Below, one piece after another: positions 2,416 to 64,000 of a DNA stretch of 64,000 nt; positions within the stretch are counted from its first letter, which is position 1; every line of letters starts with the position of its first letter. The notes beneath the pieces are model-generated. The model did no database searches. It was not told the DNA's origin and saw nothing but the letters and a program-made list of their open reading frames with translations. The DNA lies in the NCBI GenBank assembly GCA_964585155.1, contig CAZPCQ010000001.1, forward strand, positions 8,070-72,069, in the 5' to 3' direction. Source of the stretch: an uncultured Candidatus Saccharibacteria bacterium (GTDB taxonomy: Bacteria; Patescibacteriota; Saccharimonadia; Saccharimonadales; Saccharimonadaceae). The position numbers and the translations under genes were made by a program.

Positions 2416-2417
2416 CT

Positions 2418-9781: not shown

Positions 9782-9914
9782 CTTTTACCTCTAATCTTTC
9801 CCTGAAGAGAATGAATTTTGAGTTAATACGCGGAAAAAGTGAAGCACGCAAGCGAACCGTATTTGACATACGGAGAGCGCGTACTGGAACTTTTGACAAA
9901 GTAGTAACCAAAAT

Positions 9915-11021: not shown

Positions 11022-11040
11022 ACTTCCTTTATCAGCCCTT

Positions 11041-11288
11041 CATTATAATTTATTTAATAATAGTAATAGTAAGTACTGTGGAAATTGTGGAAAACGCTCC
11101 CCCATATCTGTTTTCCTATGTGCAAATCGACCTGCAAAACTTTCCCACAGCCACGTGCAAAACTCCGACTTTTACCCACCAAAACCCCACTTTCCGACTT
11201 TTTCACAGCCCCCTTCCAACTTTCCCACAGTCTTTCCCACAAACTTTCCCACAAACTTATCCACATTTTTTCCACAGCCACCGCATTT
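11041..11288. promoter_or_regulatory. oriC: oriC: AT-rich DUE, DnaA-trios and DnaA boxes between dnaA and dnaN
   Basis: TAA TAA TAG TAA TAG TAA (11055-11072), then GTAC and TGTGGAAAT/TGTGGAAAA (11077, 11086). This matches the B. subtilis basal unwinding layout. Further boxes at 11221, 11233, 11245, 11257 (TTATCCACA) and 11268. Confidence 0.9.
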
Positions 11289-13571: not shown

Positions 13572-14117
13572 ATAGGCGAAGGATCTTGACATACGTTTAA
13601 TAGTGCGTTAAAATGGTCTCATACAGCTATTGAAAATTACTTTCGTTTACCGAAGGTAATTTTTATAGTCACCTTAAGGCGACTAATCTTGAATGATATA
13701 GTCATATAAGTCTCATTCCACATTGTTAAATTGTACTAATTCATCGACCAACCAATAAAGGTTGAATAGCATCGGCCAATTAGTCCTTCCTGTCAGTCTC
13801 CGCCATATCTCCATATTAGCATAAACTTTACTTAATATAAACACTAAATCATTATAAACATAAATATAAACACAAAAATAACTATATCACAACCCAAGAC
13901 TATACTTCCATAAACCAAATTTTATTATATAATAAGCAACACTAATATATCACCAAATGAATATTTAAGATATAATATTGATAATATGACACCAGATAAA
14001 AAATAAAGCCTCCTGAAGCAAAGGCCTACCGCCTCACGCCTCCCTCTAGCGAATAGTCATTATTTCATCTAAATCCAACTTTTTGTTTCTTAGTCTAGTT
14101 AAACTACGTCGTATTAT

Positions 14118-14212
14118 TCCGAGGCGACGAACCGCCCCTGAAGCGGGGCCTAAGACTTGGCCGAGCGGCCCGGAGCGGCCCCGCGGAAGGGGTGGGAGTG
14201 CAAGCCATCGGA
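14118..14212 (+). repeat. Structured repeat family A, short copy inside a larger nested inverted repeat
   Basis: GGCGACGAACCGCCCCT..CTAAGACTTGGCCGAGCGG..GCGGCCCCGCGGAAGGGGTGGGAGTGCAAGCC, flanked by a perfect 19-bp IR (14068-14086/14248-14266). Confidence 0.85.
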
Positions 14213-14406
14213 TGATTAGAAGAAAGATTTGTCTAGCATATTATCTTACAAAAAGTTGGATTTAGATTATGTACATTATTCGCTTAGAAAAAATTAAAAT
14301 ACCTTTTCCATTTTTTATTTTCAAAATATGTTAAAATTCTTTAAAATAAATATGAATTTCCACATCCCTTCTAGTCATCTCTATAAAAGTATGCTATAAT
14401 GGAACT

Positions 14407-15522
14407 ATGTTTTCATTTATTGATATGATTATCGTCCGCCCCATCACGAACATCCTCTTTTTGATCTACGGTTTCGTGGGTGATTTCGGCCTGGCGATTA
14501 TCCTTTTTACAGTTTTAGTTAAAATTTGTCTCTGGCCTATCGCCAAGAAACAGCTTCATCAGACTCGCCTGATGCGCAAGATTCAGCCTGAGCTCGCTGA
14601 GATCAAGAAGAATTGCAATGGTAACCGCCAGCTCGAATCTCTTCAGATGATGGATCTCTACAAGCGCAACAATATCAAACCTTTCCGCTCTATGCTTACG
14701 CTTATTATCCAGCTGCCGATTTTTATCGCCCTCTATACTGCGGTTCGCGTGATGGTTTTACCAGTTCCCGATGACAATCTTGAGCTTCGCGCCTACGCCC
14801 CCGTCCGCCAGATCGAGCGCGTCGAAGAAGTCGTCCAGCTTCAGCAGCCTTATCTCGAGTATCAGCGCGAAGTTGCCGCCATCCGCAGTGATAGTAATTT
14901 GAGTGACGAAGAAAAAACCGCCAAAATCGACGAACTTCCCAAAGTCACCTATGATTTTCACCCTAAACTTTTCGGTCTTGTCGATCTCGATGTTAAGGCT
15001 GGTTTTGGCTCCACTAGTGCTCTCGTGATTATGGTTTTTGCTCTCGCTTCCGCCTTCACTCAGTTTTGGATTTCTCGCCAACAACTTCCATCTAAAAAAG
15101 GTGACCGTAAAACCTTCCGCCAAATCATGGCCGAAGCCGCCGACGGTAAAGAGCCTGACCAAGCCGATATGAATCAAGTTATGTCTAGTCAGATGGCCTA
15201 TACGATGCCGATTATGATGCTCCTCATTATGATTAATCTCCCTGGCGCTCTTGTCTTTTACTATCTTATCACGAATCTTATGACCGGTCTCCAGCAAAAG
15301 TATATCCTCGGCAAAAAAGAAGAACAAATGGAAATCTCTGCCGACAAAAAACTCATCCGCGACCTCAAGAAAATGGAAGAAGGCCAGATTGTCGAAGATA
15401 CTACATCTAATCGGTGGGTCAAGAGTAAGAATGCGACCAAAAGTGAAGACAAAGCCGGTGTGAAAGTTACGCACATTTCCGCCAAAAGTAGTCGCAGGGG
15501 TCATAAGAAGAAAAGGAGTTAA
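14407..15522 (+). CDS. yidC: Membrane protein insertase YidC
   Basis: DFGLAIILFTVLVK..IQPEL..LIIQLPIFIALY; GALVFYY; synteny. Confidence 0.95.
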   Translation: MFSFIDMIIVRPITNILFLIYGFVGDFGLAIILFTVLVKICLWPIAKKQLHQTRLMRKIQPELAEIKKNCNGNRQLESLQMMDLYKRNNIKPFRSMLTLIIQLPIFIALYTAVRVMVLPVPDDNLELRAYAPVRQIERVEEVVQLQQPYLEYQREVAAIRSDSNLSDEEKTAKIDELPKVTYDFHPKLFGLVDLDVKAGFGSTSALVIMVFALASAFTQFWISRQQLPSKKGDRKTFRQIMAEAADGKEPDQADMNQVMSSQMAYTMPIMMLLIMINLPGALVFYYLITNLMTGLQQKYILGKKEEQMEISADKKLIRDLKKMEEGQIVEDTTSNRWVKSKNATKSEDKAGVKVTHISAKSSRRGHKKKRS

Positions 15523-38337: not shown

Positions 38338-38660
38338 TATTACCCCTCCTAATTTTTTGTCTTCTGATCTGATTTCACTGGATAACCGCAGTAGAACTTG
38401 TATAACTACCTGGTTTATAAAGTCCCACTTCGGTCTTTGCTGGATTTTTGCTGGTTTCTGCTATGTCTGGCCCATCCGCCAGAGATTTTCCCACCTTTCT
38501 TCTAGTAAAATTGATTTCAAAGAACCTCGGGTCACACCCAACCTTCAAATTATAGCACACTTCACCAAACATTTCAAGTCTTGCCAAAACGCTTATGCTG
38601 TGCTACAATAAGCTCATCGCTCTGCTAATGAGCCAAAAGTTGATTTTTCTATAAAGATTT

Positions 38661-38870
38661 TGAGGGCGGCGAACCGCCTCTGGAGCGGGACCTAAGACTT
38701 GGCCGAGCGGATTCCGAACTGCCGAGAATAGCGAACAGAAAGAAAAGTCTTTGAGTAGTATTCTATATATCATACACTTTATTAGACTTTTCTTTCTTAA
38801 GCGACGCAGGCAGCATGTGGCGCCAGCCACTGCAGCGGTCCCGCGGAAGAGGTGGGAGCGAAAGCCCTCA
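38661..38870 (+). repeat. Structured repeat family A, full copy
   Basis: Aligns end to end with 62221-62430; ends 6 bp from the galE stop codon. Confidence 0.9.
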
Positions 38871-42178: not shown

Positions 42179-42590
42179 CTGCCCTCCTTGTGGGTATTAA
42201 TTATCGCCCCGCAGCCGCCATCTTTGAGGAGGGCCAACTCCATACAAAAATGGCGCCGCGAGGCGAAACCACAATCTAGAAGCAATCTGCTCAAGAACGT
42301 TAGCTTTCTCGTGACGCCATTTTCACGTTCTCAAACAAATACACTCAAATAAGCAATTGTCATAATTCCAAATTGTGATTTCGCACTTCCAATTATATAT
42401 CAAACTGTCTGCGTTTTCAAGCATTTTTCTCGCCTCCCCAGCGAGCTGACGTACGTATCATAAGTTTCATAACCCACTCTTTAGCAGTTAGGATTAAAAA
42501 CCTTCAGAGCTGTCAACAACACGGCCTCCTAAGGCAGATACCTCCTCCTCTCCATCTCTCCTCTAGCGAATTAATCTTGATATTATGCTC

Positions 42591-42746
42591 GGCGCGACCC
42601 GGTGAACCTTTTCATTCGAGGTTATTTCGTTCCTGGCTGGCTCGGGTCCGATTCAGGCGGGTTGGTTCTGAGTGAGAATGGGCTAAATCCTGATGAGGAG
42701 AGAGCCACCAAACCTCGGAGGGAAAGGTGAGCGCAAGGGGAGCGCC
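42591..42746 (+). repeat. Structured repeat family B, copy 1
   Basis: GGCGCGACCCGGTGAACCTTTTCATTC..GGAAAGGTGAGCGCAAGGG shared with 51742-51898. Confidence 0.85.
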
Positions 42747-42915
42747 TTCGCATATATTATTTTAATTCGCCTAAAAAATAAAAATCCTTTTCCATTTTTT
42801 ATTTTCGATATTAATTATAAAAACTATTTCCAAAAACTTTTTATTAATTTTTTGGTTTCAAAAATCTAAGAATATCCTCCTTTCCCAAACCCCCAATCTA
42901 TGCTATACTTATCTT

Positions 42916-44343
42916 ATGAAACGGGACACGGGTTTGATTTTCCACGCTTTCCTGATTTTGGGTGACGCGTGCGCGATTTTACTGTCCTTTTTGGCGGCTT
43001 ATTTTATGCGCACTCATTTGGACCAACGCCCATTTTATTTTGAGGCTGACCCTTGGCGCTTCGTTTTGTCAATGCTGGTTATGGTCCCCGTTTATCTTCT
43101 AATTATGGCTGCCCTCGGGCTGTACAAGAAATCCGTTTTTCTCAGCAATAGTCGCTGGCACGAAATCGGCCGCATTTTCCTCGCCTCTGTCATTGGGATG
43201 ATGGCGATTATCACCTGTGACTTCTTCTTTTCCACCGACCTTTTCCCGGTCAAAGTTATGGCATTATATGCTGTTTTCACCTGTTTTGTCTTGCTTAGTC
43301 TTTTCCGCGGTGGCGTCCGCCTCGTCCGCAGTTTTGCTCTCAAGCACAGCCACAAAGCCGCTCTTCGTGCCATCATTGTCGGCAATAGTCAAAATACCGA
43401 GTACCTCGCTGACTACATCTCCGCTTATCCCGAGTCTGGCTTCCGTCTTGCCGGTATAGTCGCCTCGCAGAAATATATCCCCAAAGATCTCCGCCGCAAA
43501 CAATATTCCTCTCTCAAAGAGGCCTTGCGCAAGGCCCGCCCCGACGTTATTTTCCAAACCGATGAGCGCCGTACTGATTACGTCTATCGTCAGGCTGTCA
43601 ATCGTCATCTCTATTATTATTTCGTGCCTTCTAGTGCTGCTCTTACCGCCCAGACCGGAGAAATGGAGCTCGTCGGCAGTACCCCGGCTATCTTAGTCAA
43701 AGTCACCCCTCTTGCCGGCGGTGCCCGCTTTGCCAAGCGCTGTTTCGATCTGTTTTTCGGGTCGATTATTTTACTGCTTGCCCTCATTCCGATGGTTCTC
43801 ATCTGGCTAATCGAGAAGATCTCCGATCCACACGCCCCTGCCGTCTATAGTGATATCCGCCTCTCCCGCTATAACAAGAAGTTCAAGATTTACAAATTCC
43901 GCTCCATCAAGTCAGAATACAACGGCCTCACCCCAGAGGAGGCCTTCGAGAAAATGGGCAAACCTCAGCTGATCAAAAAATACCGTGCCGGCGGCGATAT
44001 GATCCCTAACGACCCTCGTATCACCAAACTCGGCCACTTCCTCCGCGCCACTTCGCTGGACGAATTGCCGCAATTGTTTAACGTTGTCAAAGGCGACATC
44101 TCTCTCGTCGGTCCCCGTGCCCTCGTCCCCGGAGAACTCCGCCATTACGGCGATCGCTCCCTCCTCCTCTCGGTCAAATCTGGGCTTACTGGCCTCGCCC
44201 AAGTCTCCGGCCGCCGCGACATCGGTTTCGACGAACGTCGCGCCCTCGACCTCTATTACATCCAAAACTGGTCTATCTGGCTTGATCTCCGCATCCTCCT
44301 CCGCACGGTTGGCGCTGTTCTACTCTGTAAAGGGGCGAAATGA
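42916..44343 (+). CDS. Polyprenyl-phosphate sugar-1-phosphate transferase (WcaJ/WbaP family)
   Basis: KRCFDL, FKIYKFRS, DPRITKLGHFLRATSLDELPQLFNV, SLVGPR, DLYYIQNWS. Confidence 0.93.
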   Translation: MKRDTGLIFHAFLILGDACAILLSFLAAYFMRTHLDQRPFYFEADPWRFVLSMLVMVPVYLLIMAALGLYKKSVFLSNSRWHEIGRIFLASVIGMMAIITCDFFFSTDLFPVKVMALYAVFTCFVLLSLFRGGVRLVRSFALKHSHKAALRAIIVGNSQNTEYLADYISAYPESGFRLAGIVASQKYIPKDLRRKQYSSLKEALRKARPDVIFQTDERRTDYVYRQAVNRHLYYYFVPSSAALTAQTGEMELVGSTPAILVKVTPLAGGARFAKRCFDLFFGSIILLLALIPMVLIWLIEKISDPHAPAVYSDIRLSRYNKKFKIYKFRSIKSEYNGLTPEEAFEKMGKPQLIKKYRAGGDMIPNDPRITKLGHFLRATSLDELPQLFNVVKGDISLVGPRALVPGELRHYGDRSLLLSVKSGLTGLAQVSGRRDIGFDERRALDLYYIQNWSIWLDLRILLRTVGAVLLCKGAK

Positions 44344-46337
44344 CCTCTAGGAACTCTCCAAAGGTGGGCTCACGAGCGCAAAACCCCTCAAAATCACCCA
44401 AAAATGACCAACGGTCAGTTTTTCCTGTCAAAAACGCCCAAAAATCTCAAAAACCGAAAAAAGATAATTCTTCGTCGGAAACCGCGCTTTTTGACAAAGA
44501 ATCAAACTGGTCTTTGGAGGTTAGACACCTTTCTCCCAGAAAGGGGTCTAAATATGGCGTCGCCCTCGTCTGTGACTGGCTCACCACCCCTGGTGGCGCC
44601 GAAAAAGTTCTCCTCGAGCTCCACCGTATGTATCCCGACGCCCCCATCTACACCTCTCAATATAGTAAAAAGGGAATCGACTGGTTTGCTGACGCCGATG
44701 TTCGCACCGGCTGGCTCCAAATCTTCCCGAGAGCCTTCCGCAAATTCATCGGTCCCTTACGTCAGCTCTATTTTAGCCACCTCGACCTTTCCAGCTACGA
44801 TCTTGTTATCTCTGTTACTGGTGCTGAAGCCAAATCCGTCCGTACGAAACCTAGGCAACAATCTTCATCAAAAAGCTCCAAAACCGACCTCACCGTGCCC
44901 AAAAAACACCCATCATCAAAAAATGCACCTTCCATCGAACCGCAAACCGGCGCCACCCACCTCTGTTACTGTCACGTCCCTACCCAATACTATTGGCAAA
45001 TGTATGACAAATATGTCGCAAACCCTGGTTTTGGCCTGCTCAACCCTCTTGTTCGCCTCGCTTTTAGAGTTCTAGTCAAGCCTCTCCGCCAGGCCGATTA
45101 TCGCGCCGCTCAGCAGCCCGACCAGTTTATCACCATCTCAAATTACGCCAAAGATCAGATTCAGAAATACTATCAGCGTGACGCTGTTGTCATCGCTCCG
45201 CCGGTCGAAGTTGCCAAATTTACCCGCTCTTCTGTGTGCTCTCTGCCGGAAAACTCTAAAAATCATCGACGGAATTCTACTTTTCCACCGGAAGTAGCCC
45301 AGAAATCCACTGCTAGTGGGGAATTATCCACCAAATCTCCCAAGATTTCCACAAATTCTCCACAAGAAATCCACTGCACGCCTCATACTTTTCCATCAAG
45401 ATCATCTACTTCTCCACAGATTATCCACAGCCAAAACGTAGTTTATCCACAGGGGATTACAACTTCTCCACAACATTTCCACCAGAAATCCACCGAAAAC
45501 CGTAACTTTTCCACAACTTCTCCACAGAATATAGCAGATCTTTCCACCGTTAGCACTAAAATTTCCACAACTTTTCCACAAGTTTTCCACAATCAAAGTC
45601 AAAGTTATCCACAGGACGGATATTTTATCATTTCTTGTCGCCAGGTGAACTGGAAACGCGTTGACCTTGCCATCACCGCCTGCAAATCTCTTCATCTCCC
45701 CCTCAAAGTCATCGGTAGCGGCCCCGAGCATTCACGCCTTGTCAAACTTGCCGATAACTGTCCTAATATTGAATTTATCCCTTGGCTCGACACTGGAGAA
45801 TTAGCCCATTTTCTGCAAAATGCCACCGCCTATCTTTTTCCTAGCCTTGAGCCTTTTGGCATCGCTGCTGTCGAGGCTCTTGCTGCCGGTTGTCCCGTCA
45901 TCGCCTATCGCGAGGGCGGCAGCCAAGACTTTATCGAAGAAGGGAAGAATGGGCTCTTCTTCGATCAGCAGACTCCGGATTCTCTTATCAAGGCTCTCCA
46001 TACTTTCTATGATTACGACTTCGACCCCAATATTGTCGCTCAGACCGCCCAGCGTTTTAGTCCTGACCACTTCCGCCAGCAGATTCAGTCTCTCATCAAT
46101 CAATCTTTTCACGGTATCGTGAAATCAGATCTCGACCCCAGTCAAAGCCACCCCAGTTCATCGACCTCATCTCACTCCAAGCCTATCACGCAAGCCAAAC
46201 AAGGTCACTCAAATCCCAAAGCATCAAACTCCTCATCCCGCCCCAAATCCATCACGAAATCCAAACCTCAGCCCAAAGATCTCATATCAGACCATCGTGC
46301 CAATAAAAAATCAACCAAGAAAGGAACAAATTTATGA
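44340..46337 (+). CDS. GT4 glycosyltransferase with several low-complexity insertions
   Basis: VALVCDWLT..GGAEKV, WKRVDLAI, EPFGIAAVEALAAGCPVIAY. Confidence 0.88.
   Translation: MTSRNSPKVGSRAQNPSKSPKNDQRSVFPVKNAQKSQKPKKDNSSSETALFDKESNWSLEVRHLSPRKGSKYGVALVCDWLTTPGGAEKVLLELHRMYPDAPIYTSQYSKKGIDWFADADVRTGWLQIFPRAFRKFIGPLRQLYFSHLDLSSYDLVISVTGAEAKSVRTKPRQQSSSKSSKTDLTVPKKHPSSKNAPSIEPQTGATHLCYCHVPTQYYWQMYDKYVANPGFGLLNPLVRLAFRVLVKPLRQADYRAAQQPDQFITISNYAKDQIQKYYQRDAVVIAPPVEVAKFTRSSVCSLPENSKNHRRNSTFPPEVAQKSTASGELSTKSPKISTNSPQEIHCTPHTFPSRSSTSPQIIHSQNVVYPQGITTSPQHFHQKSTENRNFSTTSPQNIADLSTVSTKISTTFPQVFHNQSQSYPQDGYFIISCRQVNWKRVDLAITACKSLHLPLKVIGSGPEHSRLVKLADNCPNIEFIPWLDTGELAHFLQNATAYLFPSLEPFGIAAVEALAAGCPVIAYREGGSQDFIEEGKNGLFFDQQTPDSLIKALHTFYDYDFDPNIVAQTAQRFSPDHFRQQIQSLINQSFHGIVKSDLDPSQSHPSSSTSSHSKPITQAKQGHSNPKASNSSSRPKSITKSKPQPKDLISDHRANKKSTKKGTNL
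45281..45613 (+). repeat. Phased DnaA-box array inside the GT4 coding sequence
   Basis: 20 (T/A)T(A/T/C)TCCAC-type 9-mers, every gap 11, 21 or 22 bp; perfect TTATCCACA at 45421, 45443 and 45605. Confidence 0.9.
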
Positions 46338-48328
46338 AGATCCTCCGCAACCTTCTCTGGCCCCTAGTCTACGCCCTCCCTGCCGTCCTCTTTTTCTCCT
46401 ATCACCCCGTCATCGGCCTCGGCGCCAACTCCTCCATGAACTTCGAACTCTCCCTTCCGCTCCTCTGGCTGATTATTTTTGATTTCTTTAGTTTCATTAC
46501 AATGGTCGTCCTCTTCGTTCAAAAACGTCAATCAGCGCAGCACAAATCCACTTCAAAATCAATAGGCCAAGCATCCGCCCGCTCTAAGCATCACTCTGGC
46601 CCCTGGGGACCTCACCTCCCTGGCCTCACCGACCGCCGCTTCTTCCTCTTAGCCATTTTCCCGCTCTACCTCACCATCTCGGTTTTCTGGTCGGCCAATC
46701 CCCTCCGCGGTCTCTTCACCGCCGGCGTGATGTGGGCTGTCTTTTTCGCCGTTTTCTCTCTGTTATTTATTGTCCCCCAGACTGGCGCTCCTCGCCGCCT
46801 CCGCACTCACGTCCTCTTGACAATGTTCATCTCCGCTGTTATCGTTTGCAAATTTTGCTATGCTCAGAGTATTATGGATACTTGCTTTGGCCTTTCCCGC
46901 GATGCTACTCTCCTCTGCCCCGGCTGCACTTACCGCTCCTTCGGCTTTCCTCATCCTTCCGGCTTCGCCATCGAGCCCCAGTTTATGGGCAATCTCCTTC
47001 TCGCCCCCACCCTCACCGCGCTCTATCTCGTCGCCTTCCGCTCGCGCAAATTCGCCAATACCGTTATCCATGAAGCCTCTCATCTTGAGAATGAGGCCGA
47101 ACATAATCTCCTTCACGACCAAGTTCACCTCCCCGAGGTCAACTGGAAACTCTGGCAACGCATCGGTATGATCATCCTCGCCGGCTTCCTTTCGATGACG
47201 CTGTTTTTCACCTTCTCCCGCGGCGCCATTTACGCTTACGTCGTCGCCATCTTGAGTATGCTAATTTTTGCCCTCAAGCGTCACCAATTCCGCTGGAGCC
47301 TCATCGCTATCCCCGTTGTCAGTTTCATCCTCTCGCTCAGCCTCCAGGGAACATTCGCCGCCGTCGGCCCCACCGCTGAGACTTTCTTCTCCGGCGTCGC
47401 CAAATCCGTCCACCAGCTCTCCCTCGGCCTCATCGACTTCCGTTCGCTCGCTTATGAGCCCTCCGAGGACGCCATCGAGCAATATAGTTATGAGCATGCC
47501 GTCCCCACCTCTGTCGCTCGGGAGATTCTCAAACGTCAATATCAATCCCAGCTCTCTTCTCAATCTGTGAAAAACTCCTCATCAAACGGTGGAAAACCTG
47601 TGGATAAAACCAGCCTAGATGTGGAAAAGAATGACCAAAATGTAGATAAAATCGATCAAGATGTAGAAAAAACCGCCGAAATCATCGACCACGAAATCAC
47701 CAAAGAGGAAACCAAGTTAGAAAACGAGGTTGATACTACGCTTGAAGATATCATTTTCGAGGGCTACGTTCCCGAATCCACCAATATCCGCCTGCACCTC
47801 AATCGCGCCGCCATCGACACCTGGCTTTCCGCCCCCGGCCATCCCGAGTCCGGCCTCAGTATTGGTCTCAAATGTTCCCACTCCGACCCCTGCCTTGCCT
47901 CTGGTAAACTCACTCCCACCAGCATCCTCTTCGGCGTTGGCCTTGGTGGTGCCGGCACCGCCCTCTATCTCAATTCTCCCGTTACTGACATTAACTCGCC
48001 CAAAGAAATCGTCCAAAACGAACCCTTCTCCCTCCTCTTAGAAACCGGACTCGTCGGCATCGCTCTGGCTATTTTCGGACTCCTCATCATCTTCGCGCCC
48101 CAGATTTTCACGCGCAAATTCCTCGACGGCAAATCCGCTCCAGCTACCAAATCCACCCCCAGCCCCTTCTGGCGCCATCCCGCTCTCCCGCTTCTCCTCT
48201 CCCTCATCGTCGCCTACGTCATCACCCTCAATTTCTTCTCCGGCCTCCCCAACGCCCTCCAGATTTACCTCATGCCGCCCCTCCTCTACCTCATCTTTTC
48301 TGACCACTACCGCGTCACCACTGTTTAG
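46334..48328 (+). CDS. O-antigen ligase/polymerase-like (Wzy_C) membrane protein
   Basis: Many TMs; GFAIEPQ, TFSRGA, FGVGLGG, NEPFSLLLETGLVG. Confidence 0.75.
   Translation: MKILRNLLWPLVYALPAVLFFSYHPVIGLGANSSMNFELSLPLLWLIIFDFFSFITMVVLFVQKRQSAQHKSTSKSIGQASARSKHHSGPWGPHLPGLTDRRFFLLAIFPLYLTISVFWSANPLRGLFTAGVMWAVFFAVFSLLFIVPQTGAPRRLRTHVLLTMFISAVIVCKFCYAQSIMDTCFGLSRDATLLCPGCTYRSFGFPHPSGFAIEPQFMGNLLLAPTLTALYLVAFRSRKFANTVIHEASHLENEAEHNLLHDQVHLPEVNWKLWQRIGMIILAGFLSMTLFFTFSRGAIYAYVVAILSMLIFALKRHQFRWSLIAIPVVSFILSLSLQGTFAAVGPTAETFFSGVAKSVHQLSLGLIDFRSLAYEPSEDAIEQYSYEHAVPTSVAREILKRQYQSQLSSQSVKNSSSNGGKPVDKTSLDVEKNDQNVDKIDQDVEKTAEIIDHEITKEETKLENEVDTTLEDIIFEGYVPESTNIRLHLNRAAIDTWLSAPGHPESGLSIGLKCSHSDPCLASGKLTPTSILFGVGLGGAGTALYLNSPVTDINSPKEIVQNEPFSLLLETGLVGIALAIFGLLIIFAPQIFTRKFLDGKSAPATKSTPSPFWRHPALPLLLSLIVAYVITLNFFSGLPNALQIYLMPPLLYLIFSDHYRVTTV
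47566..47670 (+). repeat. Small phased DnaA-box array inside the ligase-like gene
   Basis: Boxes at 47566, 47588, 47599 (perfect TGTGGATAA), 47620, 47641, 47662. Confidence 0.75.
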
Positions 48329-48468
48329 CTCTTGTTTTCTAATCCGGTCCATCATTACAAAATCTCCTCACCTCAAAAATCGCCTTTCCACCCCTGCATA
48401 AGTCCCTAGCCTCAAGAATACCGCCCCGCCCCTGTAGAGTCCATTTCCAATAGCGTCAGCCCTCGCGC

Positions 48469-48499
48469 AAAAAGCCCCGGATTTTCATCCGAGGCTTTT
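48469..48499. terminator. Bidirectional terminator
   Basis: AAAAAGCCCCGG-ATTTTCAT-CCGAGGCTTTT. Confidence 0.7.
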
Positions 48500-48513
48500 G
48501 GGGTAATAGATAG

Positions 48514-48924
48514 TTAACGCCGTTTTCTAGGATCGTAATGATCGCTCATCTCATAGAACGCAACACAGAGCCCTATATGTAGCAGTATCGCCCAGTCCAC
48601 CGCGTATTCCACGCTTTTCTCAGTTCCGAAAATGCCGTAAGTCAGGCTGAGATATAGCAGCACCAATATCAGCTGCCCCAGGTAGGTCAATCCTATCTGT
48701 ACTTTCTCCTTCACTCCGTTATATCCGAACCAATCATCCCTCAGTATGTCACGCACCATAAACAGCAAAAACGTCAATACGGCCAAGACAGCCGCCGGCA
48801 CGATAACAGTTAGGATTGTGAAGAAGATCGCCGGCAACCCCAGTCCGCCTATTGCTTCTCCGAGTATTTTCCAGAATTCCCAGAATCTCTCCCAAAACAG
48901 CCCCCAACTCAACATCAGATTCAC
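48514..48924 (-). CDS. Hypothetical membrane protein (3-4 TM)
   Basis: Hydrophobic ORF with its own promoter and terminator. Confidence 0.6.
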   Translation of the reverse strand: MNLMLSWGLFWERFWEFWKILGEAIGGLGLPAIFFTILTVIVPAAVLAVLTFLLFMVRDILRDDWFGYNGVKEKVQIGLTYLGQLILVLLYLSLTYGIFGTEKSVEYAVDWAILLHIGLCVAFYEMSDHYDPRKRR

Positions 48925-49189
48925 CCCATATTAAAAATTTCCAACAAAAACCCTGCTGGATGCTAGGATTTCTCATCCCATATTTCCATTATAGCACGCA
49001 TCTGCCAAAAAGTCAAGACCATACCGCGTGAATCCCTAAGCCTTGCGTCGCCAACCCGAGGCGCCGCTCTAGGGGGGGTAAAAATTCCTAGAGACACAAA
49101 GTAGTTTAGGGATTCGGGTCATACCCACACATACGACTATCAATCTTAAAAACCTCCCCCGCTTGCGCAGGGGAGTTGGGTGGTTAGTT

Positions 49190-49753
49190 TTAGTCTTTGT
49201 CGGCGCCATCTTTTGCCTGCTGCAGTCTCTCTCGGATTACCTCCGACCGCAGCGCCGCCTTGAACACGCCCGCAATTAAATTCAGTTTAGCTAACGGGCA
49301 GACAATGCTATCTACGCTTTTACACCGTCCCAGGTAAAGTCCCCAAGTTGGCACGTTGGGGGCTACATCTACTCCTCCCCTGACGATATTCGCTATCATA
49401 CCAAGCTCAAGCGCCGACTTGCCGACTATCACCGCGGTTCTCAGATCCCTGGCGCCAAGTCCCCGCTCATCCAGCACCATACATCCACCGGCACTGTCCG
49501 AATCAGGCGCTTTTATGCCAAAACCGCCAACGCACACCCCGATAAACTGCAACAGCGTATACACTAAATCCAGCTCTTCATCTCTGACATTTGTTGTCTC
49601 ACTCAGACAGAGAGCGATGTGCTCGGTTGGCTCGTCATCGTCGCGACCAAAATCCACCGCCCCAGCGCTCGTCTTGATGCCTAATCTGGCCGCCAGCTGA
49701 CTGAGCTCGATCATCTTCGCCGCCGTCTCACTATCAAAAGCCCGTTCTGCCAT
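49190..49753 (-). CDS. Hypothetical protein
   Basis: RBS AAAGGAGG before MAERAFD; terminator at 49152-49177. Confidence 0.65.
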   Translation of the reverse strand: MAERAFDSETAAKMIELSQLAARLGIKTSAGAVDFGRDDDEPTEHIALCLSETTNVRDEELDLVYTLLQFIGVCVGGFGIKAPDSDSAGGCMVLDERGLGARDLRTAVIVGKSALELGMIANIVRGGVDVAPNVPTWGLYLGRCKSVDSIVCPLAKLNLIAGVFKAALRSEVIRERLQQAKDGADKD

Positions 49754-50252
49754 TAAAATTCCTCCTTTGAGTAGTCTAAAGCCACTCCATCCAGTGGCCT
49801 TATTTCTACCCAAACAGGGAATTAACTAACCAAAATGTACCTAAGCCACTACAGATAATAGACTGTAGCCAGCCCATATCTCCACTATAGCACACATCTG
49901 CCAAAAAGTCAAGGTTGCTTTTCCGCCCAATCATATGATTTTATACTATCGACTAAAATAAAATCAATACCGCCTACACTTCTCTCCTGCAAAGTCAAAC
50001 TAACTCGCGAAATCTCACTATTTTCCACTCAAAACCTAAATTCTGTGCTATAATAGAACTGCTGAAAGACAATTTGATTAAGTAACCTATGGTTTTATAT
50101 GTAGCCTACATTTTTCATAATGCATTAAAATGGCGTCACGAACGGCTAAAAAAGTGCATTGTGATCGTAAGGTTACTCTGTTGTCTTTCAGCACCGTCTC
50201 GCGGCGCCATTTTTGTATTAAGCCTCGGGCGGTGAACTAATAAAGGAGGCAG

Positions 50253-51737
50253 ATGCTAAAACTCAACACTAAATTAAAATACCCACTCTTCACAATAACT
50301 TTTGCGTTGGGTGGATTTTTCTTATTTCAATACCTAACTTTTATTCCCGAATACTCCAACGCCACAACTATAGAAACTCCCGTCTACGACGATTCCAAAG
50401 TCGACACGCGCACTCTTTCTGACATTACTTATATGCAAGAAATGACATCTGGAATATGTAAACGTTCTGTAAAAAATGAAAGTAAACAACTTATCGATGG
50501 CCGTGATGGAAAACACTATTGGGTAACAAAGCTCGTTGGTCCAGGCGGTGAAGAAAAAAATGGATGTTGGATGACGCAAAATTTGGATTTCGATTTGTGG
50601 AATGAGGAGACTAATGAACCAATAGTATTAAAAGTGGATAATTTAAATTTTATGGGCACAGATATAGAAAAGAATTGGGAGTCTACTTCTGGGAGATCTG
50701 TGCTATGGGCGGATTCGGGGAGCGAGACAGTTAAGTACTATGACCCGGGGTACTATTTGTATAAAGGCTTTTCTTTACGTCAGCCGGCGTCTCGCGATTT
50801 GGCATATGGCAAGGCATCGGAAAATTTGACCTTGACGGATGCTCATTACCTTCAAGGGAATTACTATTCATTCAACGCTGCTACGGCTGGCAAAGGGGCA
50901 AATTTTGGCCTTGTGGGTAAGGATGAAGATGTACGGAGTAGTATTTGTCCGAAAGGCTGGAGGCTACCTACGGCTCTTAGTGATGATGGGGTGTCATTCA
51001 ATTTTTTAAATACAGTAAGCACAACTAAGATATTTTCATCACCGTATTTCTTTATAAATAGCGGTTTTGTGAATGGAGGCTTGCTAGATGATGCCTTCGC
51101 TGGTAGATACTGGTCTTCTACGGCTTATGCTTATAGGGACGATGCTTATGATTGGGGTTTTGCTGATGGTGACGAGTGGCCAGCGCTTGGTATAATTTAC
51201 AGATATGAGGGAAAGACTATAAGATGCGTAGCGAGGGACGATACTGAAGATGTGGAGACTCCGGGCATTGATAATCCAAACACCTCCGTCACCGTCCCAA
51301 ACATAATAACACTAGACGTAAGTAATAATGTAAATATAGAAACAAATACTAATACAGTAAACGAAGGTAGTTTCACCGCTTCCGTCAGTTCTAATGCTCC
51401 ATATAGCATTAGTCTTAGTACCACGGATGGTGGCCACACCGACTTACGTAATGATAATACCAACTCCTCCATTCCCGCATTAAACCCTACTTCTAATATC
51501 ACAGAGAGTAGTAGTAAATGGTGGGGAATCAAATGTACTAACTCAGGCACTTCCACGGGTTGTACTAAAACAACCTATACTGGTCTTACTAATCACTTAA
51601 CTCCCACTCTTTTCTATACATCAACTCAAAGTACCTCTAACCAACTCACCCACTTCACCATCGGCATCCAAACCTCTCCCGACCTCCCAAGTGGCACTTA
51701 TTCCACCAGTATATTAGTTACTGCATCTCAGAATTAG
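50253..51737 (+). CDS. FISUMP domain surface protein 3 (FISUMP first, beta-sandwich domain last)
   Basis: NGCWMTQNL, GNYYSFNAA, ICPKGWRLP, GRYWSST, TIRCVAR; RBS AAGGAGG. Confidence 0.8.
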   Translation: MLKLNTKLKYPLFTITFALGGFFLFQYLTFIPEYSNATTIETPVYDDSKVDTRTLSDITYMQEMTSGICKRSVKNESKQLIDGRDGKHYWVTKLVGPGGEEKNGCWMTQNLDFDLWNEETNEPIVLKVDNLNFMGTDIEKNWESTSGRSVLWADSGSETVKYYDPGYYLYKGFSLRQPASRDLAYGKASENLTLTDAHYLQGNYYSFNAATAGKGANFGLVGKDEDVRSSICPKGWRLPTALSDDGVSFNFLNTVSTTKIFSSPYFFINSGFVNGGLLDDAFAGRYWSSTAYAYRDDAYDWGFADGDEWPALGIIYRYEGKTIRCVARDDTEDVETPGIDNPNTSVTVPNIITLDVSNNVNIETNTNTVNEGSFTASVSSNAPYSISLSTTDGGHTDLRNDNTNSSIPALNPTSNITESSSKWWGIKCTNSGTSTGCTKTTYTGLTNHLTPTLFYTSTQSTSNQLTHFTIGIQTSPDLPSGTYSTSILVTASQN

Positions 51738-51741
51738 TCTC

Positions 51742-51898
51742 GGCGCGACCCGGTGAACCTTTTCATTCAAGGTTATTTCTTTACTGGCTGAGCCGGGTCC
51801 GATTTGCGAGAGGAGAATAGTAGAACAGAATAACTATGCTCCGCAATGAGGAGAGGCTCACCGAACCTTGAATGGAAAGGTGAGCGCAAGGGTTGCGC
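51742..51898 (+). repeat. Structured repeat family B, copy 2
   Basis: Homologous to 42591-42746; starts 4 bp after the FISUMP-3 stop codon. Confidence 0.85.
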
Positions 51899-52554
51899 GT
51901 ATTGGCCTTTTGAACAAGGTAGCCGTGCCTTGGAAAAAATCAAACAAAAAAGAGCGCAGAAACCCTTGTATTTTTCAGATAAGTGTGTTAGAATGGGAGC
52001 ATAAAGAGAGTTGATTACCTTCGATTGATGTCGAGGGTAATCTTTAGTTTACGCACTAGTGGGCTTTTAGCCTTGTCTAGCTCGATTTCTAAAGAGGCTC
52101 TCTTCATACTCACCTCCTCACGCAAGGCCATTTTTATAAAAAATGGCGGTAGAGCGTATCTTCGGAAATAAAAATACAAGTATTTTTGTTTCACTCAGAT
52201 ACTACTACCTAAAATTGTTTATATTATCGAAAATTGTAGGAGACGAACCAATAAAAGTAACACTACTTATAGAAAGTAGTGCCTTAGCGGGAATTAAGTT
52301 ATTTTTATTGTGAGGCGACGCCCAATTTTCTGGCGCGTCAGCGACAGACCTGAAAAAGTTAATAATCTAAACTATACAAAACGTTTTCTACGCTCTCTAC
52401 ATCTATCCTATCAGAGAAATAGGCTTTTGCATAGGGTAAAATTCGGTCGAAGCCCGATTTCCCCAGAGGCAACCACAAAAAAGTCCCATTTTTGTGAAAA
52501 AAGTCTTAAAAAAGTCTTGATTTTCTAAAAATCTGCGGTATAATGTACATATGT

Positions 52555-52631
52555 CGCGGGATAGAGCAGCCTGGTAGCTCGTTTGGCTCATAACCAAAAG
52601 GTCGTTGGTTCAAATCCAACTCCCGCCACCA
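52555..52631 (+). tRNA. tRNA-Met(CAT), initiator type
   Basis: Cloverleaf CGCGGGA..TTTGG-CTCATAA-CCAAA..GTTGG-TTCAAAT-CCAAC-TCCCGCC-A-CCA; C1:C72 mismatch; encoded CCA; promoter TTGATT-17-TATAAT upstream. Confidence 0.95.
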
Positions 52632-61880: not shown

Positions 61881-62056
61881 CTCCACTTCTGGCATTAGCC
61901 CCACCTCTATTACTCCTCCAAGAACTACCATTAATCCCCCGGCTTCGGCTGGGGGATTTCTGTTTTTATCATAAAGTCGCTGACCTATTCTTGAGATATT
62001 TTCCATTCAAGGCCCATAAAATCATCAAAAATCCTCAAAATCTTCAAAAAAGTCCA

Positions 62057-62166
62057 TTAGCACTCTTGCATTGTGAGTGCTAATGTGCTACAATAGAGGT
62101 AAGTTGGCAATCGCAATGCCCGACTGCCAACTAAATTAAATAGCACTATTGACATTCGAGTGCTAG
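62057..62166 (+). promoter_or_regulatory. Three CIRCE/CIRCE-like HrcA operators
   Basis: TTAGCACTC-N9-GAGTGCTAA (62057, perfect); TTGGCAATC-N9-GACTGCCAA (62104); ATAGCACTA-N9-GAGTGCTAG (62140). Confidence 0.88.
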
Positions 62167-62217
62167 TGAATTAGAATAATAAAAGATGAAGTTTAATAAT
62201 TTGACGTAGAAAATGAT

Positions 62218-62433
62218 TTTGAAGGCGACGAACCGCCCCTGGAGCGGGGCCTAAGACTTGGCCGAGCGGATTCCGAACTGCCGAGGATAGCGACTAGAAA
62301 GAAAAAGTCAGTACGTATCAATATATAACCAATGTAATACAAATGACTTTTTCTTTCTGGAGCGACGCAGGCAGCACGTGGCGTCAGCCACTGCAGCGGC
62401 CCCGCGGAAGGGGTGGGAGTGCAAGCCTTCAAA
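62218..62433 (+). repeat. Structured repeat family A, full copy in the dnaK leader
   Basis: TTTGAAGGC..GCCTTCAAA termini; homologous to 38661-38870. Confidence 0.9.
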
Positions 62434-62479
62434 GCCAATATGATTCATACGTTAGATTTTATTACAAAGGAGGACAAAT

Positions 62480-64000
62480 ATGTCAAAAATCATCGGTATC
62501 GACCTCGGCACGACCAACTCCGCTTTTGCGTATATGGTCGCCGGTAAGCCCGAAGTTATTACCAATAGCGAAGGCGACCGCACCACGCCGTCCGTCGTCG
62601 CTGTTACTAAGAAAGGCGACCGTCTCGTCGGCAAAGTCGCCCAGCGTCAACGCGTCACCAATCCGCGCAACACTATTTATGGTATCAAACGTTTGATTGG
62701 TCGCAAATTTGACGATAAAGAAGTCCAGCGCGACCTCGACATTATGCCTTACAAGATTGTTAAGAAAGGCAATGGTGTCGCCGTCGAGATGGATGGCAAG
62801 GAATATACTCCGGAGGAAATTTCCGCAATGATTCTCAGCAAAATCAAGGCTGACGCGGAAGCCTTCCTCGGTGAGAAAGTTACCGAAGCCATCATTACTG
62901 TCCCGGCTTACTTCAACGATTCTCAGCGCCAGGCTACCAAAGACGCCGGCAAGATCGCTGGCCTCGAAGTTCGCCGTATTATTAATGAGCCGACTGCTGC
63001 TGCCTTGGCTTATGGCCTCGAGAGCAAGAAGGACGAAAAAATCGCCGTCTTCGACCTCGGTGGTGGTACGTTCGATGTGAGTATCCTTGACATCGGCGAT
63101 GGCGTCTTTGAGGTGAAATCCACCAACGGCGATACTCACCTCGGTGGTGAAGATTTCGATAACGTCATTGTTAACTTCTTGCTTGACGAGTTCAAGAAAG
63201 AATCCGGTATCGACATTCGTGACGATGCTGCCGCTATGCAGCGTGTCAAGGATGAGGCCGAGAAAGCCAAGAAGGAACTTTCCTCGACCACTTCTGTTGA
63301 GATCAACTTACCTTTCTTGACTGCTGACGCCGATGGTCCAAAGCATTTCGAGTATACTTTGACTCGTGCCAAGATGGAAGAATTAGTTAAGCCACTTCTG
63401 AACCGCCTCGCCGATCCAGTCGAGAAGGCCCTGAAAGACGCCAAACTCACCGCCAAAGACATTGACGAGGTCGTAATGGTCGGTGGTATGACCCGTATGC
63501 CTGCTGTCGTCGAAGAAGTCAAGAAGATCTTCGGCAAAGACCCCATGCAGGGTGTCAACCCTGACGAAGTCGTCGCCGTCGGTGCGGCTATCGAAGGTGG
63601 TGTCTTGCAAGGTGATGTGAAAGATGTTCTCTTGCTTGACGTTACTCCGCTTTCCTTGGGTATCGAGACGATGGGTGGCGTTTCCACTAAGTTAATCGAG
63701 CGCAATACTACCATCCCTACCAGCAAATCCGAAGTCTTCTCCACCGCCGCTGACAATCAGCCGCAGGTCGAGATCCACGTTTTGCAGGGTGAGCGCGAAA
63801 TGGCCGCCGACAACAAATCTCTTGGTCGTTTCATCCTCGATGGTATCGCTCCCGCTCCTCGCGGCATCCCTCAGATCGAAGTTACTTTCAACATCGACGC
63901 CAACGGTATCTTGAACGTTACCGCCAAAGACAAGGGTACCGGCAAAGAGCAGAGTATCACCATTCAGAACTCTGGTAATATGAGCAAGGAAGATATCGAG
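62480..64000 (+). CDS. dnaK: Chaperone DnaK (3'-truncated by the window; not in the ORF track)
   Basis: [41 protein letters not shown]..; RBS AGGAGG. Confidence 0.98.

What the first reader, a model, noticed from the sequence alone, without database searches (positions are those of the whole stretch)
42591..51898. Repeat family B: pseudoknotted, ribozyme-like architecture with a triple compensatory helix
Seen: two copies (42591-42746, 51742-51898). Helix TGGCTC/GAGCCA becomes TGAGCC/GGCTCA (three compensatory pairs). ACCTTTTCATTCGAGGTT/AACCTCGGAGGGAAAGGT becomes ..CAAGGTT/AACCTTGAATGG.. (a G-C to A-U swap). GACCC near the 5' end can pair with an internal GGGTC, crossing that helix. A variable central hairpin and conserved unpaired blocks (GGTGA, GGTTATTTC, ATGAGGAGAG, GAGCGCAAGGG) are present. 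Inference: a structured RNA, possibly catalytic or regulatory.
Basis: partly seen in the sequence, partly recalled or inferred. Interest (0 to 1): 0.78.

Follow-up and report, generated by a model that had tools for sequence, protein, structure and literature searches.

The report
Dispersed rod-shaped hairpin repeat family
The two 160-base copies are real members of a multi-copy, hairpin-forming intergenic repeat in a gut Saccharibacteria-like bacterium whose long stem is kept intact by matching mutations, but nothing supports a pseudoknot or a ribozyme, so it most resembles known transcribed, mobile-element-like bacterial repeats such as bcr1.

Summary
Both copies exist (42588-42750 and 51739-51903, + strand). 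They fold into the same unbranched rod of about 54 base pairs. All 48 consensus pairs form in both copies, and 8 pairs changed on both sides.

The + strand folds 18-26 kcal/mol better than its complement. Rfam has no match, ribozyme families included. The proposed pseudoknot never varies and competes with two helices of the rod.

The element is not a conserved gene leader. The downstream sugar-transferase gene has its promoter 7 nt before the ATG. The element is also missing from the same site in five relatives.

Contig depth in the source samples suggests about 15-30 copies per genome, with different flanks. No hit appeared in genome, metagenome, viral, phage or plasmid collections.

A second family in the window ("A", three copies) shares the same basal module. 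There the helices covary and the unpaired G, A, GAG and AA are invariant. Two A copies sit directly behind strong promoters, one of them in the dnaK leader, so an RNA-level role is plausible.

Modules are nested and shuffled between families.

Verdict: a new family of structured dispersed repeats (bcr1/ERIC/Correia kind). Function and mobility are unproven, and no RNA data were available.

The parts
42588..42750 (+). Family B copy A: full rod-shaped element
   Evidence: CM hit of 189 bits. MFE -78.6 on + against -50.3 on -.
51739..51903 (+). Family B copy B: full element, starting 2-4 nt after the stop codon (51735-51737) of ORF 50253-51737
   Evidence: CM hit of 193 bits. MFE -75.9 on + against -57.9 on -. 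ORF.
42592..42613 (+). 5' strand of the basal module: P1 42592-95, P2 CCC 42598-600, unpaired G, P3 GUG 42602-04, unpaired A, P4 42606-13
   Evidence: The module is shared with family A.
42721..42745 (+). 3' strand of the basal module: P4 42721-28, GAG, P3 CGC 42732-34, AA, P2 GGG 42737-39, P1 42742-45
   Evidence: G, A, GAG and AA are invariant in all five A and B elements.
42615..42623 (+). P5 5' strand, pairing with 42711-42719. It contains the G-C to A-U swap at 42618/42715.
   Evidence: The A variant at 42618 sits in about 20% of the summed contig depth.
42624..42633 (+). 10-nt one-sided bulge AUUUCGUUCC (AUUUCUUUAC in copy B)
42638..42643 (+). P7 5' strand UGGCUC, pairing with 42702-42707 GAGCCA. 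Three double compensatory changes against copy B (51789-94 / 51855-60).
   Evidence: An intermediate form was seen in a gut-metagenome contig.
42653..42693 (+). Hypervariable apical hairpin
   Evidence: Partly reconstructed variants keep the hairpin, with G42656C matched by C42690G in two other copies.
42644..42648 (+). Internal GGGTC proposed to pair with GACCC 42596-42600 as a pseudoknot. This is not supported.
   Evidence: Invariant in both copies. It conflicts with P2 and P8. A G42596A variant is present without any reported partner change.
51904..51935 (+). 3' tail after copy B (TATTGGCCTTTTGAACAAGG...). It recurs after several other copies and is absent after copy A.
   Evidence: Loose ends..
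42561..42587 (+). Left half of an enclosing palindromic module (CTCTAGCGAATTAA...). It includes an extended -10-like TGATATTAT (42578-86) that ends 5 nt before the element.
   Evidence: The same left flank occurs on at least 3 other contigs.
42751..42806 (+). Right half of the enclosing module (TTAATTCGCC plus an A/T hairpin). It is also found at 14278-14322.
   Evidence: (D17).
42882..42909 (+). Promoter of the sugar-transferase operon (TTCCCA-16-TGcTATACT), 7 nt before ATG 42916. The element therefore lies upstream of it, not in a leader.
   Evidence: The -10 element and ATG are conserved in 5 relatives.
14113..14218 (+). Family A copy 1 (short form), sister family sharing the basal module
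38653..38870 (+). Family A copy 2, 44 nt downstream of promoter TTGCCA-17-TG-TACAAT (38581-38609)
62212..62431 (+). Family A copy 3, inside the dnaK 5' leader. It follows the CIRCE-like operators and promoters at 62058-62177 and precedes ATG 62480.

Best explanation
Family B is a roughly 160-nt member of a modular superfamily of dispersed, imperfectly palindromic intergenic repeats. The host is a gut Candidatus Saccharibacteria-like bacterium.

Shown:
- There are about 15-30 copies per genome with unrelated flanks.
- The copy upstream of the sugar-transferase gene is absent from that site in close relatives.
- The + strand folds into an unbranched rod of about 54 bp.
- Between copies, all stem changes are compensatory or wobble changes. 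Internal-loop bases of the basal module are invariant, even in sister family A.
- Modules (basal arms, distal arms, apical hairpin, enclosing palindrome) are nested and exchanged between families.

Inferred:
- The elements spread by an unidentified transposition or recombination process that acts on hairpins, like MITE, REPIN or bcr1-type repeats.
- Their constrained form is the + strand RNA. It would be made by read-through (copy B lies in the 3' UTR of ORF 50253-51737) or from adjacent promoters (an extended -10 lies just before copy A).
- In that form the long duplex would serve as a 3'-end-protecting or terminator-like hairpin, or as a double-strand-specific RNase or protein-binding site. 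It would insulate or tune neighbouring transcripts.

It is not a self-cleaving ribozyme, not pseudoknotted, and not a riboswitch of the polysaccharide operon.
For: - Two discrete copies with sharp ends.
- Covariation: 48/48 pairs formed, 8 double changes and 0 disruptions, matched by 3 of 500 shuffles.
- The + strand is 18-26 kcal/mol more stable than the - strand for B, and 9-13 kcal/mol for A.
- Summed contig depth over the conserved arms is 15-30 times the single-copy depth in four samples. Many different flanks join at 42587-42594 and 42739-42747.
- The element is absent upstream of the orthologous sugar-transferase gene (81-94% protein identity) in L005, L006, L007, L008, L009 and L010. 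It is also absent from about 80 kb of related genomes.
- Only chance hits were found in genome contigs and metagenome contigs, and none in viral, phage or plasmid collections.
- The basal module shared with family A is 92% paired, with 7 pairs changed on both sides and invariant unpaired G, A, GAG and AA. 0 of 500 shuffles reach the observed percentage paired and covariation score; 13 of 500 reach the count of pairs changed on both sides.
- Family A copies lie behind strong promoters and in the dnaK leader.
- All five elements are G-rich (skew +0.10 to +0.22) on a strand whose overall skew is -0.22.
- Nested and chimeric arrangements are seen.
- Precedent: bcr1 of the Bacillus cereus group is about 155 bp, has a non-conserved genomic distribution, is transcribed, and keeps its RNA structure through compensatory changes (PMC3184786).
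Against: - No transcript data exist for this organism in the runs available, so RNA-level action is inferred only.
- No transposase, RAYT or integrase was found in the window.
- No convincing target-site duplication was found. The ATATTAT repeat flanking copy A belongs to a larger module that is itself repeated.
- No empty-site allele was seen.
- Only two complete B sequences were available. Other copies were seen only as depth, variant tables and 30-nt flanks.
- Invariant loop bases combined with a hypervariable apex fit a dedicated functional RNA at least as well as a selfish repeat.
Confidence: 0.55

Rival explanations
1. A family of dedicated small RNAs or RNP scaffolds. The conserved basal module would bind a specific protein, and the variable apical hairpin would give each paralogue its specificity. 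Copies would be genes rather than selfish repeats.
For: - Unpaired bases of the basal module are invariant across two families while the helices covary.
- The arms are nearly invariant among about 20 copies, yet the apex is replaced wholesale.
- Family A copy 2 has its own consensus promoter.
- An extended -10 lies directly before copy A and before at least 3 other copies.
- G-U pairs make the fold strand-specific.
Against: - Upstream flanks of most copies are unrelated, so no promoter is conserved.
- There is no conserved terminator.
- The element is absent from relatives whose NusA is 76-87% identical.
- Contexts are heterogeneous: a 3' UTR, a divergent promoter region and the dnaK leader.
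- Chimeric and nested copies look like mobile DNA.
Confidence: 0.2
2. A single-stranded-DNA recombination or transposition site. The hairpin with its conserved extrahelical bases would be recognised on one DNA strand by an HUH (IS200/IS605 or RAYT-type) transposase or an integron-like tyrosine recombinase.
For: - Stems covary while the asymmetric loop bases are conserved, as in attC sites and REP hairpins.
- All five A and B elements have the same orientation on a strand with uniform GC skew.
- Hairpins are nested within hairpin centres, and a recurrent junction follows TCCGA.
- Copy B abuts a stop codon, as a cassette-end site would.
Against: - No HUH transposase or integrase is found in the 64 kb.
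- There is no RYYYAAC/GTTRRRY or GTAG/CGTC tag.
- By GC skew, the better-folding strand is the leading-strand template, not the exposed lagging-strand template.
- Family A copies lie in the sense orientation behind promoters.
Confidence: 0.12
3. A cis-regulatory leader (riboswitch or attenuator) of the exopolysaccharide operon 42916-48328.
For: Copy A lies 170 nt upstream of the Bac_transf gene on the same strand.
Against: - The operon promoter (TGcTATACT) sits 7 nt before the ATG and is conserved in five relatives.
- The upstream region is not conserved and lacks the element in those relatives.
- Copy B has an unrelated context.
Confidence: 0.03
4. A pseudoknotted self-cleaving ribozyme.
For: GACCC and GGGTC are complementary. 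Copy A contains CUGAUGA.
Against: - No Rfam ribozyme model matches at E<=10.
- CUGAUGA is CAAUGA in copy B.
- The pseudoknot is invariant and excludes P2 and P8. P2 covaries in family A.
- A G42596A variant occurs without a partner change.
- The architecture is a single unbranched rod.
Confidence: 0.03

Closest known systems
bcr1 repeat of the Bacillus cereus group (Okstad 2004; Klevan 2007; reviewed in PMC3184786)
   Same: It is about 155 bp, multi-copy and intergenic, and its genomic distribution is not conserved between close relatives. It has a stable predicted RNA structure kept by compensatory changes, and no coding capacity.
   Different: There is no sequence similarity. bcr1 folds as a two-arm cruciform-like structure and has 5-bp TTTAT direct repeats. 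Here the fold is a single rod, no clear duplication is seen, and modules are nested and shuffled. bcr1 transcription is shown, whereas here it is untested.
Hairpin-forming MITE-like repeats (Neisseria Correia/NEMIS, enterobacterial ERIC, pneumococcal RUP/BOX/SPRITE, Rickettsia RPE)
   Same: These are 100-170-bp imperfect palindromes scattered in intergenic DNA. They are co-transcribed with neighbours and fold into long RNA hairpins that can change mRNA stability or termination.
   Different: Those families have defined terminal inverted repeats, target duplications (for example TA) and often a parent IS. None of these could be shown here. The asymmetric loop bases conserved across two families are unusual for MITEs.
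REP/REPIN elements mobilised by RAYT transposases (PMC3733652)
   Same: They are strand-specific hairpins with many copies, selection for hairpin integrity, and an orientation bias.
   Different: REPs are 20-40 nt and REPINs about 70-110 nt, and they carry a GTAG or CGTC tag. No tag and no RAYT gene were seen. Copy number here is far lower.
Integron attC sites
   Same: Sequence is variable but the hairpin is conserved. Conserved extrahelical bases set strand choice, the terminal structure is variable, and the site lies directly after an ORF (copy B).
   Different: There are no R''/R' core sites, no integrase, and no cassette array. Copy A and the family A copies are not at ORF ends.
TIGR stem-loop arrays and IS110 bridge RNAs (PMC12045711)
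   Same: These are structured guide RNAs with internal loops, found in Patescibacteria and gut metagenomes.
   Different: They occur as tandem arrays or next to Nop-domain or IS110 proteins, and they carry two hypervariable loop spacers. Here the units are dispersed singletons, no such protein is in the window, and the one-sided 10-nt bulge is nearly constant.

Membership tests
MITE / small dispersed repeat | Many copies with unrelated flanks | tested here: met
   Depth over the arms is 15-30 times the single-copy depth in X1-X4. At least 8 different flanks join at the element ends.
MITE / small dispersed repeat | Terminal inverted repeats | tested here: met
   The whole element is an imperfect palindrome. 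The ends are GGCGCGACCC and GGGTTGCGCG.
MITE / small dispersed repeat | Target-site duplication | tested here: inconclusive
   ATATTAT occurs at 42580-86 and 42754-60 around copy A. The left flank recurs with other copies as part of a larger module. No duplication is seen at copy B.
MITE / small dispersed repeat | Presence/absence at orthologous sites | tested here: met
   The element is absent upstream of the orthologous Bac_transf gene in L005, L007, L008 and L010. No empty-site allele was seen within the species.
MITE / small dispersed repeat | Parent IS or transposase with the same ends | not testable with these tools
   None is present in the 64-kb window. The rest of the source genome is withheld.
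bcr1-type transcribed structured repeat | Compensatory changes that keep the RNA fold | tested here: met
bcr1-type transcribed structured repeat | Transcription of the repeat | not testable with these tools
   No RNA run holds this organism. Only the tRNA is covered.
Self-cleaving ribozymes (hammerhead, twister, pistol, hatchet, HDV-like, hairpin) | Match to the family covariance model or catalytic core | tested here: not met
   No Rfam hit at the gathering threshold or at E<=10. CUGAUGA is not conserved in copy B.
Pseudoknotted RNA | Crossing helix supported by covariation and compatible with the other helices | tested here: inconclusive
   The five pairs never vary. They exclude P2 and P8. 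P2 covaries in family A. G42596A occurs without a partner change. The evidence leans against the pseudoknot.
Riboswitch / 5' leader | Lies between promoter and start codon and is conserved with the gene | tested here: not met
   The promoter lies 7 nt before the ATG, and the element is absent in orthologous loci.
REPIN/RAYT | GTAG/CGTC-tagged REP pair and a RAYT gene | tested here: not met
   No tag occurs at the ends. No Y1 transposase was found in the window.
Integron attC | RYYYAAC ... GTTRRRY core sites and IntI | tested here: not met
   The ends read GGTGAAC ... GGTGAGC. No integrase was found.
TIGR array / IS110 bridge RNA | Tandem units next to a Nop-domain or IS110 protein | tested here: not met
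   The units are dispersed singletons. No PF01798, PF01548 or PF02371 hit was found. The description of the system comes from PMC12045711.
6S RNA | Single-copy rod with a two-sided central bubble | tested here: not met
   The element is multi-copy, has only a one-sided 10-nt bulge, and gives no RF00013 hit.

The most novel reading that the evidence does not exclude
Families A and B would be paralogues of a previously undescribed Patescibacteria-specific structured RNA class. A rod carries an invariant asymmetric loop module (5' G-NNG-A / 3' GAG-NGN-AA) that recruits a dedicated protein. The replaceable apical hairpin acts as a specificity or cargo module. The RNA would be used both as stand-alone sRNAs and inside mRNAs such as the dnaK leader.
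Probability: 0.12. Interest if true: 0.75.

Novelty: new member of a known kind. Interest (0 to 1): 0.4.

Why it matters
Structured dispersed repeats have, as far as I could find, not been described in Saccharibacteria or Patescibacteria, whose roughly 1-Mb genomes are thought to be streamlined. A repeat family that occupies intergenic DNA, carries compensatory changes and an invariant loop module, and sits in the dnaK leader and next to surface-polysaccharide genes would be a handle on post-transcriptional control or genome plasticity in these uncultivated epibionts. Practically, such repeats break short-read assemblies of these genomes: the Logan contigs end at the element. They should also be masked before screening for new riboswitches or ribozymes.

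Tried and rejected
- Rfam at gathering and E<=10 thresholds on both copies and on family A gave only a tRNA and chance hits.
- Two-block pattern scans of genome contigs and metagenome contigs returned only coding-region chance matches.
- Four viral scans and blastn against phages and plasmids found nothing.
- Look-ups of the window's own proteins and its paralogues failed because the source genome is not on record.
- Eight related loci were fetched through NusA and Bac_transf homologues. None has A or B elements by nhmmer, covariance model or motif regex.
- The RNA runs found hold only the neighbouring tRNA.
- K-turn reading of the basal module: B fits the tandem G.A arrangement if a 6-nt insertion is allowed. 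Family A does not fit, so this was rejected.
- Small-ORF reading (ATG at 42693 and 51846, MRR..KGERKG): only 17 codons are shared, the changes are non-conservative, and the ORFs diverge entirely outside the element. Rejected.
- DGR target-end hairpin: there is no reverse transcriptase and no TR/VR repeat in the window.
- Hammerhead: the CUGAUGA box is in copy A only.
- TIGR and IS110 guide RNAs were rejected.
Full report
**Observation.** The two stretches are real and discrete.
- The alignment shows identity starting at about 42582/51733 and ending at about 42746/51898, with unrelated flanks.
- A covariance model built from the pair scores 189 and 193 bits at 42588-42750 and 51739-51903 on the + strand. 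Nothing else in the window scores above 22 bits.
- Each copy alone folds into the same unbranched rod: -81.4 and -76.6 kcal/mol, z-scores -5.6 and -6.6 against dinucleotide shuffles.

**Structure.** The RNAalifold consensus has 48 pairs, and all of them form in both copies.
- Eight pairs changed on both sides, five changed on one side through G-U wobble, and none is broken.
- Only 3 of 500 column shuffles reach these values. Sliding the 3' partners by 1-3 columns drops pairing to 35-53% with almost no double changes.
- The + strand is 28 and 18 kcal/mol more stable than its complement because of G-U pairs.
- From base to tip the rod runs as follows.
  - P1 (42592-95 / 42742-45), then the loop GA/GA.
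  - P2 CCC/GGG, then the loop G/AA.
  - P3 GUG/CGC, then the loop A/GAG.
  - P4, then P5.
  - A one-sided 10-nt bulge (42624-33).
  - P6, then P7.
  - The loop GGG/AG.
  - P8 UCC/GGA, then the loop GAU/UGA.
  - A hypervariable apical hairpin.

**Pseudoknot and ribozyme.** Neither is supported.
- GACCC (42596-600) and GGGUC (42644-48) are complementary but identical in both copies, so they carry no covariation.
- The pairing would destroy P2 and P8.
- P2 is supported independently. In the sister family the homologous helix is GGC/GCC.
- About 17% of the summed depth carries A at 42596, with no reported change at 42648.
- No Rfam family matches at gathering or at E<=10, and that includes all self-cleaving ribozymes.
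- The hammerhead-like CUGAUGA of copy A is CAAUGA in copy B.

**Organism and surroundings.**
- The window carries dnaA, dnaN and recF (8777-12662, - strand), yidC and jag, and a VirB4-like ATPase.
- It also carries LCP and many glycosyltransferase genes, several FISUMP-domain surface proteins, NusA and dnaK.
- One distant FISUMP homologue is named as coming from Candidatus Saccharibacteria.
- The sequence is found in gut samples.
- The taxon assignment is therefore an inference.

**Not a leader of the polysaccharide operon.**
- Copy A lies between divergent genes, 170 nt upstream of a Bac_transf/GT4/Wzy-like operon.
- That operon's promoter (TTCCCA-16-TGcTATACT) ends 7 nt before the ATG.
- The -10 element and ATG are conserved in five relatives, while everything further upstream is unrelated.
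- In loci whose Bac_transf protein is 81-90% identical (L005, L007, L008, L010), the intergenic region lacks the element. The contigs of the two closest relatives, L006 (91%) and L009 (94%), end about 140 nt upstream of the gene, before the position of the element.
- Copy B starts 2-4 nt after the stop codon of a FISUMP-like ORF and lies upstream of a promoter and a tRNA gene.

**A dispersed, lineage-restricted repeat.**
- I laid Logan contigs of four samples that hold this genome on copy A. Summed depth rises from about 90-110 (single copy) to 1400-2900 over the conserved arms, and falls back over the apical hairpin. That corresponds to roughly 15-30 copies.
- Contigs leave the element at 42587-42594 and 42739-42747 into many different sequences. 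The same holds in other gut metagenomes with related strains.
- Among these copies the arms show only a handful of variant positions. These include the 42618 A variant (about 20% of depth) and 42703/42720, which match copy B.
- The apex is replaced wholesale. Partly reconstructed variants keep the hairpin, with G42656C matched by C42690G twice. These reconstructions are incomplete.
- The family is not found elsewhere.
  - Scans of 185,579 species genomes and of the JGI metagenomes gave only chance matches in coding DNA.
  - Viral, phage and plasmid collections gave nothing.
  - About 80 kb from relatives with NusA at 76-87% identity has no copy.
  - The sampled 31-mers occur only in one study and partly in one other run.

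**A sister family and a shared module.**
- A second repeat, family A, occurs at 14113-14218, 38653-38870 and 62212-62431, all on the + strand. It also folds into rods that are more stable on the + strand.
- A and B share the basal module 5' SSS-G-NYG-A-ACC / 3' GG(U)-GAG-YGN-AA-SSS.
- In a five-sequence alignment of this module, 92% of cells pair and 7 of 16 pairs changed on both sides.
- The unpaired G, A, GAG and AA are invariant. 0 of 500 shuffles reach the observed percentage paired and covariation score; 13 of 500 reach the count of pairs changed on both sides.
- This signature points to a motif recognised in single-stranded form. The sample amounts to essentially two lineages, so it is suggestive rather than conclusive.

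**Transcription (predicted only).**
- Family A copy 2 lies 44 nt downstream of a TTGCCA-17-TG-TACAAT promoter.
- Family A copy 3 lies inside the dnaK leader, after two CIRCE-like operators and two promoters and before the Shine-Dalgarno sequence.
- Relatives carry a different G+C-rich rod at the same place in the dnaK leader.
- Copy A of family B is preceded by TGATATTAT, ending 5 nt before the element. The same left flank precedes at least three more copies.
- Copy B would be transcribed as a 3' UTR.
- No metatranscriptome in reach contains the organism.

**Modularity.**
- Copy A of B, and copy 1 of A, each sit in the centre of a larger palindromic module (CTCTAGCGAAT ... ATTCGCYTAR plus an A/T hairpin).
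- The whole regions fold as nested rods of 250-290 nt.
- Some contigs join the B 5' arm, right after GUCCGA, to the interior of family A.
- Other contigs combine the B distal part (51771-51867) with different basal arms.
- Family A itself exists with and without a 115-nt insert.
- This looks like repeated insertion or exchange of hairpin modules at hairpin tips.

**Composition.** The + strand of the whole window has a GC skew of -0.22, whatever the gene orientation. The five elements have +0.10 to +0.22. Their G-rich, better-folding strand is always the same genomic strand.

**Interpretation.**
- The best-supported reading is a new family of structured dispersed repeats of the bcr1, ERIC or Correia kind. 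These are non-coding, multi-copy, variably located and under selection for a hairpin (precedent in PMC3184786).
- I infer that the constrained form is the + strand RNA. It would act as a long duplex at transcript ends or in leaders, for 3'-end protection, termination or processing.
- Mobility is inferred from distribution only. No transposase, clear target duplication or empty site was found.
- Rivals not excluded are a true sRNA or RNP family, favoured by the invariant loops and one dedicated promoter, and an ssDNA recombination site, favoured by uniform orientation and nesting.
- The riboswitch and ribozyme readings are contradicted.

**Limits.** Only two complete B sequences could be read. 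Copy number and variants come from contig depth tables. All statements about transcription rest on promoter consensus matches.

Noticed in passing
window 14113-14218, 38653-38870, 62212-62431: Second structured repeat family ('A'), in short and long forms. It shares its basal loop module with family B. One copy has its own promoter and one lies in the dnaK 5' leader.
   Followed up: partly
window 62040-62482; L011 3745-3900 (-); L004 3987-4367 (-): The dnaK leader holds two CIRCE-like operators (TTAGCACTC-N9-GAGTGCTAA) overlapping promoters, followed by a G+C-rich rod. Related genera carry a different conserved rod (…CUCGGGAAUCUCCGCGACUAACGAGGAGCG…GUCCCGAAAAGAC) at the same position. It may be a heat-shock leader element.
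   Followed up: partly
window 14044-14322 and 42561-42806: A palindromic module (CTCTAGCGAAT … ATTCGCYTAR plus the A/T hairpin CCTTTTCCATTTTTTATTTTC) encloses an A or a B element, giving nested rods of 250-290 nt. Its left half is itself highly repeated in related gut metagenomes.
   Followed up: partly
window 1-64000: GC skew of the + strand is strongly negative (-0.22) throughout, for genes on either strand and for intergenic DNA. There is no sign change at dnaA/dnaN/recF (8777-12662), so the skew switch is not at dnaA in this window.
   Followed up: partly
window 42882-42916, 14372-14407; L005-L010: An extended -10 (TGcTATAMT) ends only about 7 nt before the ATG of Bac_transf and yidC, which suggests leaderless or near-leaderless mRNAs. 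For Bac_transf it is conserved across relatives.
   Followed up: partly
window 51959-52042: A consensus-like promoter (TGTGTTAGAAT) is followed within about 10 nt by a 13-bp stem and a T-run (52013-52042). This could be a very short transcript or an attenuator upstream of ORF 52310-52528 and the tRNA at 52555-52628.
   Followed up: no
window 51904-51935: The tail after copy B (GGCCTTTTGAACAAGG) partly repeats the 5' arm (ACCTTTTCATTCAAGG). It could pair with the 3' arm as an alternative structure, and similar tails follow other copies.
   Followed up: no
window 45327-45591: Six imperfect 38-nt repeats (TCCACN…TTCTCCACA) at irregular spacings of 11-65 nt lie inside the 665-aa GT4 glycosyltransferase ORF.
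   Followed up: no
window 1-8158: A cluster holds a VirB4-like ATPase (CD1110 family), a 1001-aa protein of unknown function and a phage-tail-lysozyme-domain protein. It resembles the monoderm-type T4SS reported for Patescibacteria.
   Followed up: no
window 62483-63139 (-): An ORF matching Pfam NAD-GH lies antisense to the dnaK gene, which starts at 62480 on the + strand. I take it to be a spurious antisense ORF rather than a gene.
   Followed up: partly
L008 9780-9960: The relative GCA_964508115.1 has an unrelated G+C-rich long hairpin upstream of its Bac_transf gene. Structured intergenic elements therefore seem common in this lineage but differ between species.
   Followed up: no
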